From NCBI RefSeq assembly GCF_004010195.1, contig NC_057757.1, forward strand, positions 913,686 through 973,345: a stretch of 59,660 bases of DNA. Direction: 5' to 3'. The stretch is from Chiloscyllium plagiosum. Its lineage: Eukaryota. Shown here piece by piece: positions 51,336 through 52,815 of the stretch; position 1 is the stretch's first letter; each line of letters begins with the position of its first letter. The position numbers were made by a program, and so were the translations under genes. The notes below the pieces were generated by a model. The model was not told the origin of the DNA, ran no database searches, and saw only the letters and a program-made list of their open reading frames with translations.

Positions 51336-51758
51336 AGAAGGAACCTTTTTTAAAATGATGCCCGCTAGTTTTGAACTCCCTGACCTTGGAGAAAATACCT
51401 CCTTTATTTTTCACCTTATCCATGCCCCTCCGTGATTTTATAAGCCTCAGTACTCCAGTGAGAAAAGTCTCAGCCCCTCCTTTATAACTCAAACCCTCGA
51501 GTCCTGGTGAATCTTTTCTGCACCCTCTCCAGCTTAATGATATCCTTCCTATAACAAGGTGGCCAGAGCTTGGCAGAGAGTATTCTAAAAGTGCTCTCAC
51601 CCACGTCCTACACAACTGTGACACTTTATCCCAATTCTTATAGCTCCAGGTCTGAGCAGTGAAGGCCACTTTAACAAGCGTGTCTGTACGTTTTGCAAAC
51701 TTTAAAGAATAATGAACCAGAAACCCCAGGACCCTCTGTTGTCCAACAGTACTCGGGG

Positions 51759-51993
51759 ATGGAAATGTGTTGCTGGAGAAGCGCAGCAGGTCAGGCAGCA
51801 TCTAGGGAACAGGAGAATCGACGTTTCGGGCATTAGCCCTTCTTCAGGAATGGCGGTGGAATGGCGGGTGAACTCTTTGATGCCCGAAACGTCTATTCTC
51901 CTGTTCCCTAGATGCTGCCTGACCTGCTGCGCTTCTCCAGCAACACATTTCCATCTCTGATCTCCAGCATCTGCAGACCTCATTTTCTCTTCA
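51759..51993. mobile_element. Young foldback family A Penelope-like terminus with 14-bp TSD and an exon-derived spacer
   Basis: Arms 51759-51833 and 51880-51954 (75 bp, one mismatch); TSD aacagtactcgggg at 51745-51758 and 51994-52007. Confidence 0.88.
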
Positions 51994-52174
51994 AACAGTA
52001 CTCGGGGCCCTACTTTTAAATTTATAAGTCCAGCCCTTGTTTGTCTTCAGAGCATTAGAGGTGACACTGGTTAGGGGGAAGTGTGTTTAAGACACTGAAC
52101 AGCCGTGATCTCTGCGAAGTGGCTGGAATGGGCTTGCGGGTTGAATCTCTCTGTCACACTTTGTTATTTGGAAA

Positions 52175-52495
52175 TAGATTAGATTAGATTCCCTACAGTA
52201 TGGAACCAGGCCCTTCGGCCCAACCAGTCCACACCGACCCCCCGAAGAGTAACCCACCCAGGCCCATTTCCCTCTGACTAATGCACCTAACACTATGGGC
52301 AATTGAGCACGGCCAATTCACCCTGACCTGCACATCTTTGGACTGTGGGAGGAAACTGGAGCACCCGGAGGAAACCCACGCAGACACGGGGAGAATGTAC
52401 AAACTCCACACAGACAGTCGCCTGAGGGTGGGATTGAACCTGGGACCCTGCTGCTGTGAGGCAGCAGTGCTAACCACTGTGCCACCGTGCTGCCC
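52175..52495 (-). mobile_element. HE1-type V-SINE, full length
   Basis: Same consensus as 37888-38219. Confidence 0.9.
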
Positions 52496-52645
52496 ATCTT
52501 GCTTTGATGACTGCACCGATCCCACCCCTGGGATCTTTCTATTCTCACTGGAGTGTGTTGCAGGGCTCGGTGAGGGGAAGTTTCGCGACCTGAATGGGTT
52601 TTCCTTTCATTCCAAAGCCCCAGCCTTCTGCTTATCTTTGCTCAG

Positions 52646-52815
52646 ATGACGATGGGTTCCAAACCGGAGAGCTACGTCAAAGAGTTCACCCGCCATTCCA
52701 CCGACATGATGCTGAACCTGAACGAGATGAGGAAGCGGGAAATCCTCACCGACGTTAAGGTCCTGGTGGACGGAGAAGAGTTCAAGGCTCACAAAGCTGT
52801 GCTCATTGCTTGCAG
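52646..52815 (+). CDS. BCL6B: BCL6B coding exon 1, BTB N-terminal half
   Basis: tttgctcAG acceptor directly followed by ATG ACG ATG GGT (either ATG could initiate); TGC AG|GTATGT donor. Confidence 0.92.

What the first reader, a model, noticed from the sequence alone, without database searches (positions are those of the whole stretch)
51745..52703. Foldback Penelope-like insertion whose loop is an exact antisense copy of the neighbouring BCL6B exon
Seen: 51854-51880 (CGGTGGAATGGCGGGTGAACTCTTTGA) is the exact 27-nt reverse complement of BCL6B coding positions 52677-52703 (the K-E-F-T-R-H-S-T region), about 800 bp away. It lies in the roughly 46-nt loop between 75-bp inverted arms with one mismatch, and the unit has a 14-bp TSD. 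The junction shows GGAAT microhomology with the element end and a duplicated GGAATGGCGG. Inference: during integration the nascent strand switched template onto nearby host DNA or nascent BCL6B RNA, then folded back. If non-coding exon 1 lies upstream, the pre-mRNA would display a loop complementary to its own first coding exon about 30 nt past the acceptor and start codon, which could affect splicing.
Basis: partly seen in the sequence, partly recalled or inferred. Interest (0 to 1): 0.72.

Follow-up and report, generated by a model that had tools for sequence, protein, structure and literature searches.

The report
Exon snippet patched into Penelope hairpin
A hairpin-shaped jumping-gene insertion near a shark BCL6B-like gene, absent from the contigs that span this site in four other samples, carries at its seam a 27-base backwards copy of the gene's nearby coding sequence, likely filler copied while the insertion was being sealed and likely not a gene regulator.

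Summary
In detail: 14-bp target duplication, 75-bp arms with one mismatch, exact 27-nt antisense match to a BCL6B-like exon 0.8 kb away. The two-armed shape with a 39-nt one-sided tail is the usual insertion unit of Penelope-like elements. Only 27 of the 46 loop bases are foreign, and all are explained by two overlapping copies of one donor, with microhomologies of 6, 3 and 1 nt and no untemplated base. In 4 of 4 runs laid (4 samples, 3 studies) one contig spans the empty site with a single 14-mer. That confirms the duplication and shows the insertion is not fixed. No listed contig shows the filled allele, so the patch rests on the assembly alone. Best reading: microhomology-guided copying of local DNA while the two cDNA ends were joined (0.55). 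A jump onto nascent BCL6B RNA fits the strand and stays open (0.2). A splicing role has no support. Similar events are published for human L1. This scan noted such local copies in Penelope seams on other DNA of this genome (unchecked notes).

The parts
51745..51758 (+). left copy of the 14-bp target-site duplication
   Evidence: single copy in the empty allele of 4 of 4 runs (table 8)
51759..51852 (-). left arm: inverted element end without tail, running to the 5' end that many family copies share (inferred first-strand cDNA from the top-strand nick)
   Evidence: loose ends and joints of other copies at 51847-51852
51815..51852 (-). minimal hammerhead-like motif (CUGAAGA, 4-bp stem II, GAAAC-GUC); complete only on the minus strand
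   Evidence: read from the sequence; stem II predicted; no Rfam hammerhead hit; core layout per PMC4209133 passages and recall
51847..51856 (-). copied segment A, antisense to 52690-52699; first 6 nt shared with the element end
51854..51880 (-). copied segment B, exact antisense of 52677-52703; 3 nt shared with segment A, 1 nt with the right arm
51853..51879 (.). foreign patch, 27 nt, no untemplated base
51880..51993 (+). right arm: sense element end, 19 nt shorter at its 5' side than the left arm, with tail
51955..51993 (+). 39-nt one-sided tail
   Evidence: matches the 30-40 bp tail of PMC8557442 and PMC11167929
51994..52007 (+). right copy of the target-site duplication
52646..52815 (+). 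first coding exon of a BCL6B-like gene (CAG before the ATG, GT at 52816)
   Evidence: BTB domain
52677..52703 (+). donor of the patch, 670 nt from the right duplication copy

Best explanation
This is a short Penelope-like insertion, not fixed in the species and likely young, whose two mirror-image arms were likely made as two cDNAs primed at the two target nicks, and whose seam was likely sealed by a polymerase that copied 27 bases of nearby chromosomal DNA in two microhomology-guided rounds. Shown: the duplication, arms, tail, donor, the 6/3/1-nt overlaps, and the empty allele. Inferred: (1) both nicks primed reverse transcription, one at the outer start site (arm with tail) and one at the inner site (arm without); (2) the two cDNA ends lacked a usable overlap, so one end annealed to single-stranded DNA at the exon about 0.7 kb away, was extended, slipped back 11 nt on a 3-nt match, was extended again and then joined the other end; (3) the enzyme was a repair polymerase such as Pol theta or the element's own reverse transcriptase. 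The direction of synthesis is not decided. That the donor is an exon is probably incidental, and the patch probably has no function.
For: Arms, tail and duplication match the described unit (PMC8557442 and PMC3846280 passages). An anole element cuts and extends both strands from two start sites one tail apart (PMC11167929). Both arms share a base that 6 of 6 other aligned copies covering it lack, so they likely had one source. Every foreign base maps to one donor in two overlapping pieces. Read along the bottom strand, the overlaps rise 1, 3, 6 nt and the copy is an inverse repeat from the primer's own side. PMC7165422 (passages) describes that pattern for Pol theta: multi-round synthesis, longer second microhomologies, inverse repeats from hairpin priming. 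Empty allele in 4 of 4 runs; the X1 contig differs from the window's flanks at 1 of 345 bases, so the event is likely recent. 12 of the 15 joints shown (of 227) link a left-arm to a right-arm position in other copies, so the two-armed form is common. Local genomic copies at L1 junctions are published (bioRxiv 10.1101/2024.08.27.596794 section 4, 22 cases; PMC10191854 section 11, 4 cases).
Against: No listed contig shows the filled allele (32 of 58,095 pieces shown). The donor lies 670 nt from the site, whereas Pol theta templates are typically within 30-50 bp and distal ones are under 0.1%, and L1 templates typically within 15 bp. Read along the bottom strand, priming 0.8 kb away would rest on 1 nt, and a random 27-nt piece holds the 6-nt match only 1.4% of the time. 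That favours the opposite direction, where the template is the exon's sense strand, which simple resection would remove rather than expose. Only 1 of 5 head-to-head joints in the window has such a patch, so no frequency or geometry could be measured here.
Confidence: 0.55

Rival explanations
1. The element's reverse transcriptase ran off the 5' end of its RNA and jumped, on the 6-nt match, onto nascent BCL6B pre-mRNA (or the sense strand exposed by transcription), copied 4 nt, slipped, copied 24 nt more, and was ligated almost bluntly to the other arm.
For: In this direction the template is the sense strand of the gene, and the longest overlap (6 nt) is at the priming step. The left arm ends at the 5' end shared by many copies. 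One L1 case of co-inserted local pre-mRNA is published (PMC10191854 section 11). BCL6B acts in mouse spermatogonial stem cells (PMC6448598, abstract only), so germline transcription is plausible; unknown in sharks.
Against: Sense orientation has a 50% prior. The patch lies wholly inside the exon and has no RNA-only mark. The 6-mer is common: 6 top-strand sites within 2 kb of the empty site, 3 within 1 kb. Long first microhomologies rarely abort after a few bases for Pol theta. Expression of this locus was not measured.
Confidence: 0.2
2. Two steps: the element first landed as a near-perfect palindrome (like the copy at 13030-13227), the palindrome centre later broke, and repair trimmed one arm by about 19 nt and filled the gap from the exon.
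For: A same-subfamily palindrome with a 1-nt gap sits in this window. Centre breaks that leave long palindromes asymmetric are established (recalled, no call). The patch lies exactly at the centre.
Against: It needs two events on a haplotype that is otherwise almost identical to an empty one. Unequal arm lengths at the seam are common among other copies (table 5).
Confidence: 0.12
3. The patch, or the whole insertion, is an assembly or library chimera at a hairpin.
For: No independent read support for the filled allele. The window has 9 gaps, one of them about 10 nt after a copy of this family. Inverted PLE units trouble short-read assembly (PMC8557442 passage).
Against: The 14-bp duplication equals the single 14-mer of the real empty allele, which an assembler is unlikely to invent. 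The joints overlap by only 6, 3 and 1 nt, too little for overlap assembly (inference). Three such joints in 28 nt are not a typical single ligation chimera (inference).
Confidence: 0.08
4. The loop acts as a cis antisense element that pairs with the exon in the pre-mRNA and alters splicing or translation (a claim on function, not exclusive of the origins above).
For: A free 27-bp duplex would be stable (-53.6 kcal/mol; best 11 nt -23.6) against -8.5 for the loop's own fold. The CAG before the ATG suggests an upstream exon, and none of 68 upstream or nearby ORFs scanned reached a Pfam cut-off, so the insertion may be intronic.
Against: The allele is absent from the spanning contigs of 4 of 4 samples, so there is no sign of selection. 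The stem (-163 kcal/mol) excludes the pairing in nested folds (probability about 1e-59; this model cannot score pseudoknots). As a pseudoknot, two stems longer than one helical turn would need threading (established principle, recalled). The target is 31-57 nt inside the exon and covers no splice site. The start site is unknown.
Confidence: 0.05

Closest known systems
Insertion unit of endonuclease-bearing Penelope-like elements (PMC8557442, PMC3846280 passages; PMC11167929 parts 1-2 of 4)
   Same: Inverted copy at the 5' side, 30-40 bp tail on one side only, target-site duplication, hammerhead-like motif in the repeat. PMC3846280 also reports unrelated sequence captured between solo repeats.
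   Different: No ORF here (235 nt in all). The passages read do not trace seam sequence to DNA next to the insertion site.
L1 templated insertions and foldback inversions (bioRxiv 10.1101/2024.08.27.596794 section 4; PMC10191854 section 11; PMC11702581 passages)
   Same: A short local genomic copy built into a retrotransposon insertion inside its duplication; twin-primed ends joined by end joining; one case of local pre-mRNA co-insertion.
   Different: Different element class. The donor is 670 nt away rather than typically within 15 bp, and the copy sits between two element arms, not at the element-target junction.
Polymerase theta locally templated insertions (PMC7165422 passages)
   Same: Multi-round synthesis, inverse-repeat class, microhomology at each step.
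   Different: Defined as templated within 50 bp of the break; first tracts rarely exceed 10 bp and are AT-rich, whereas this tract is 24-27 nt, GC-rich and far away.
Yeast local foldback inversions at double-strand breaks (PMC11724301 abstract and section 15)
   Same: Short inverted copies of flank DNA inserted at a break; one joint with a long and one with a 0-5 nt overlap.
   Different: There the long overlap primes in cis within about 50 nt of the end; here the 6-nt overlap joins the patch to the arm on the far side from the donor.

Membership tests
Penelope-like element insertion unit | RT plus GIY-YIG endonuclease ORF of the PLE clade | not testable with these tools
   This copy has no ORF; no genome is held and three collection scans found nothing. 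The clade of the driving element is unknown.
Penelope-like element insertion unit | minimal hammerhead motif in the repeat | tested here: inconclusive
   Core letters, stem II and a palindromic helix III are visible, but Rfam gave no hammerhead hit and the fold is not better than shuffles (z 0.35).
Penelope-like element insertion unit | inverted copy adjacent at the 5' side | tested here: met
Penelope-like element insertion unit | 30-40 bp tail on one side only | tested here: met
   39 nt, 51955-51993
Penelope-like element insertion unit | target-site duplication | tested here: met
   14 bp; single copy in the empty allele of 4 of 4 runs
Pol theta templated insertion (TINS) | 5 bp or more copied from flanking DNA, direct or inverse | tested here: met
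Pol theta templated insertion (TINS) | template within 50 bp of the break | tested here: not met
   670 nt from the right duplication copy; so it works like a TINS but is not filed as one
Pol theta templated insertion (TINS) | later microhomologies longer than the first | tested here: inconclusive
   1-3-6 along the bottom strand, 6-3-1 along the top; direction unknown
Pol theta templated insertion (TINS) | dependence on POLQ | not testable with these tools
   needs genetics
L1-type templated insertion | host segment under 250 bp duplicated inside the insertion's duplication | tested here: met
   27 nt
L1-type templated insertion | template typically within 15 bp of the site, L1 machinery | tested here: not met
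   670 nt away; element is not L1
co-inserted local pre-mRNA (RT strand switch) | copy antisense to the transcript as seen from the priming cDNA | tested here: met
   true for the left-arm cDNA; 50% prior
co-inserted local pre-mRNA (RT strand switch) | RNA-only mark (spliced junction, edited base) or proof of transcription | tested here: inconclusive
   The patch lies inside one exon and equals the DNA; no RNA was laid on the locus.
foldback DNA transposon or MITE | inverted repeats reaching both termini | tested here: not met
   the right end carries a 39-nt tail with no counterpart on the left
microRNA precursor (Rfam MIR2118) | score at or above the gathering threshold | tested here: not met
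   49.3 bits against 85; a generic long hairpin

The most novel reading that the evidence does not exclude
Penelope reverse transcriptase, on reaching the 5' end of its RNA, jumps onto the nascent transcript of the gene it is landing in, so germline-expressed genes acquire polymorphic hairpins with a gene-specific antisense loop. This copy would be a fresh record of that jump, readable base by base.
Probability: 0.2. Interest if true: 0.62.

Novelty: new member of a known kind. Interest (0 to 1): 0.3.

Why it matters
How Penelope-like elements finish an insertion is still open (PMC8557442 calls these steps undefined; PMC11167929 leaves them unvalidated). This copy is unusually readable: a verified empty site, arms one base apart, and a seam with every base assigned. 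It records two rounds of microhomology-guided synthesis from a template 0.7 kb away, further than the published Pol theta or L1 cases usually reach. Because the donor is an exon of known polarity, it gives a concrete DNA-versus-RNA test. As a single, non-fixed event without read support for the filled allele, it does not change a field, and a regulatory role is unlikely.

Tried and rejected
No whole genome is held, so the genome-wide spacer test could not be run. Scans for other family loci found 0 matches: viral contigs and metagenome contigs twice. No RNA holder was listed for the stretch; this says nothing on expression, and no reads were laid over the exon, so the start site and upstream exon remain unknown. 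Promoter search: outside minisatellites, the best CpG-island candidate upstream is 13671-14350, next to a 973-base gap and 38 kb away; not linked to the gene; a 500-base gap at 50369-50868 could also hide it. Pfam on 69 ORFs (chosen as the longer ones among 260 mostly unmasked ORFs, plus two at the gene) gave only the BTB domain above cut-off; two weak hits were below cut-off and are treated as chance. Rfam: MIR2118 and GRIK4 hits below threshold, rejected. '27-mer is element consensus' rejected. 'MITE or foldback DNA transposon' rejected for the one-sided tail. Self-cleavage of the pre-mRNA rejected: the plus strand carries only the 3' half of the hammerhead motif. In X2, three flank bins (14.5, 16.4, 12.3) exceed the 7.98 depth of the empty-allele contig, from pieces not listed, so a second allele there is not excluded. 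Paper searches for local capture in Penelope seams: (7 papers; 3 papers, none containing 'Penelope') showed none on this by listing; searches likewise by listing only. The library lacks most subscription journals, and no supplements were read. bioRxiv 10.64898/2026.07.22.740005 (3 passages) added nothing on seams. Look-ups of earlier findings by sequence and near this place were empty.

Full report
Observation. The unit spans 51745-52007. A 14-mer is repeated at both ends. The arms 51759-51833 and 51880-51954 are 75 nt with one mismatch. Bases 51854-51880 are the exact reverse complement of 52677-52703; about 6e-12 such matches are expected in the window. The donor is 31-57 nt into an exon that starts with an ATG right after a pyrimidine-rich CAG and encodes the start of a BTB domain. 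The 20 database hits are BCL6B-like or BCL6-homolog proteins where named; the best are from sharks, 100% identical in two carpet sharks. Further exons of the gene lie at about 54.2-59.4 kb.

The element. A blast with the arm plus tail finds 25 pieces in the 59.7-kb window, and summed contig depth over the arms is about 10,000 to 640,000 times that of the unique flanks in public runs (not a copy number). On the minus strand the left arm carries a minimal hammerhead-like motif: CUGAAGA, a 4-bp stem II and GAAAC-GUC with a palindromic helix III, the layout described for Penelope-like elements in PMC4209133 (passages). Rfam does not detect it and its fold is no better than shuffles, so this rests on the letters. 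The right arm has a 39-nt extension that the left arm lacks. An inverted copy at the 5' side, a one-sided 30-40 bp tail and a target duplication are the described insertion unit (PMC8557442, PMC3846280; passages). The two-armed form is ordinary here: 5 head-to-head joints in the window, and 12 of the 15 joints shown (of 227) link a left-arm position to a right-arm position, 8 of them leaving at 51847-51851. No ORF is present, so membership rests on structure, not on the enzyme.

Is it real and how old? In 4 of 4 runs laid (4 samples, 3 studies), one contig runs from 51744 straight into 51994 with contiguous record coordinates: the empty site with a single 14-mer (table 8). This confirms the duplication and shows the insertion is not fixed. 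The X1 contig differs from the window's flanks at 1 of 345 bases, which suggests a recent event. In X1, X3 and X6 the depth over 51586-51740 equals that one contig. In X2 three bins are higher for reasons the listed pieces do not show. No listed piece (32 of 58,095) crosses the patch or a flank-to-arm junction, and contigs show presence, not absence. So the filled allele rests on the assembly. An assembler is unlikely to create a correct 14-bp duplication or joints with 6-, 3- and 1-nt overlaps (inference); I leave 0.08 for artefact.

The seam. Of the 46 loop bases, 19 (51834-51852) are element; other copies share the G at 51852. The foreign patch is 51853-51879. Segment A (51847-51856) matches donor 52699-52690 and shares 6 nt with the element end. 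Segment B (51854-51880) matches 52703-52677, shares 3 nt with A and 1 nt with the right arm. No base is untemplated. This is one template copied twice with an 11-nt slip back. The other 4 joints in the window have gaps of 1-6 nt, too short to trace. Among unique exact matches of 18 nt or more within 3 kb, I recognised no second local copy of non-repeat DNA at a seam.

Mechanism. An anole Penelope protein cuts and extends both target strands and starts at two sites one tail apart (PMC11167929, parts 1-2 of 4 read). That gives two cDNAs, one with and one without the tail, which must be joined head to head. Both arms here share a base absent from 6 of 6 other aligned copies that cover it, consistent with one source. 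The patch sits at that joint. Read along the bottom strand, the right-hand end folds back on its own resected strand, copies 26 nt, slips, and ends on a 6-nt match to the other arm. Overlaps rise 1, 3, 6, as described for Pol theta, where second microhomologies are longer and inverse repeats come from hairpin priming (PMC7165422, passages). Against this: Pol theta templates are typically within 30-50 bp, and a random 27-nt piece holds that 6-mer only 1.4% of the time. Read along the top strand, the left cDNA anneals by 6 nt to the sense strand of the exon, which could be pre-mRNA or unwound DNA, and ends with a near-blunt 1-nt joint like the yeast foldback inversions (PMC11724301, abstract and section 15). 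The 6-mer is not rare (6 top-strand sites within 2 kb). One event cannot decide the direction or the template. I give DNA templating at insertion 0.55, RNA 0.2, later repair of a palindrome break 0.12, artefact 0.08.

Function. If the insertion is intronic, the pre-mRNA would hold a 75-bp stem (-163 kcal/mol). Loop-exon pairing would give -53.6 kcal/mol as a free duplex but has probability near zero in nested folds. It could only form as a pseudoknot, and two stems longer than a helical turn would need threading (recalled principle), leaving about 11 bp (-23.6). The target covers no splice site. The allele is not fixed. The start site was not found. I found no support for regulation (0.05); any effect in a carrier would more plausibly come from the long stem than from the loop (inference).

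Comparison and novelty. Local genomic copies inside L1 insertions are published: 22 cases, typically under 250 bp and within 15 bp of the site (bioRxiv 10.1101/2024.08.27.596794, section 4); 4 foldback cases and one co-inserted local pre-mRNA (PMC10191854, section 11); templated genomic insertions in PMC11702581 (passages). Searches listed no paper on locally templated seams in Penelope elements; this is by listing only, in a partial library, without supplements. It works like a templated insertion but fails the distance criterion for Pol theta TINS and is not an L1 event. Earlier notes of this scan describe many such local copies in Penelope seams elsewhere in this genome, in either orientation. 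They are unchecked, I could not test them, and they are not counted as evidence. BCL6B's role in mouse spermatogonial stem cells (PMC6448598, abstract only) keeps the RNA reading plausible.

Verdict. A real-looking, likely young, non-fixed Penelope-like insertion with a fully readable two-round templated patch. New member of a known kind; interest 0.3. The boldest open reading, a reverse-transcriptase jump onto the host's nascent RNA, has probability 0.2 and would deserve 0.62.

Noticed in passing
window 13030-13227: Same young subfamily as a near-perfect palindrome with a 1-nt gap and a roughly 15-bp duplication (one mismatch); its left arm is 100% identical to ours over 70 nt. A patch-free control.
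   Followed up: partly
window 51894: The single mismatch between the arms is a private T in the right arm, directly after the predicted hammerhead cleavage triplet; all other aligned copies have G. RT error, later mutation or base-call error not told apart.
   Followed up: partly
window 17392-17564: A family copy ends, appears to turn into the opposite arm for about 10 nt and runs into a 71-base gap: the assembly probably broke at a foldback.
   Followed up: no
window 8214-8641: An old foldback copy is caught in a tandem duplication of about 181 bp that includes unique flank.
   Followed up: no
window 12180-12305: A 32-nt exact inverted pair 63 nt apart from a different repeat, possibly a second foldback family.
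   Followed up: no
window 13671-14350: CpG-rich unique stretch (GC 0.60, CpG o/e 0.67) next to a 973-base gap; the best promoter-like candidate upstream of the BCL6B-like exon, 38 kb away.
   Followed up: partly
window 26480-26790: CpG-rich minisatellite with units of about 23 bp that mimics a CpG island.
   Followed up: no
window 29870-30886 (minus strand): 339-codon open frame in unique sequence with no Pfam match.
   Followed up: no
run X2, window 51648-51740: Depth above the empty-allele contig (14.5, 16.4, 12.3 against 7.98) from pieces not listed; paralogous bits or a second allele.
   Followed up: no
window 51852, loose ends: In all four runs 7-19 contigs continue beyond the left-arm end with the same letters (AGGAAAG), so longer family members extend past this common 5' end.
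   Followed up: partly
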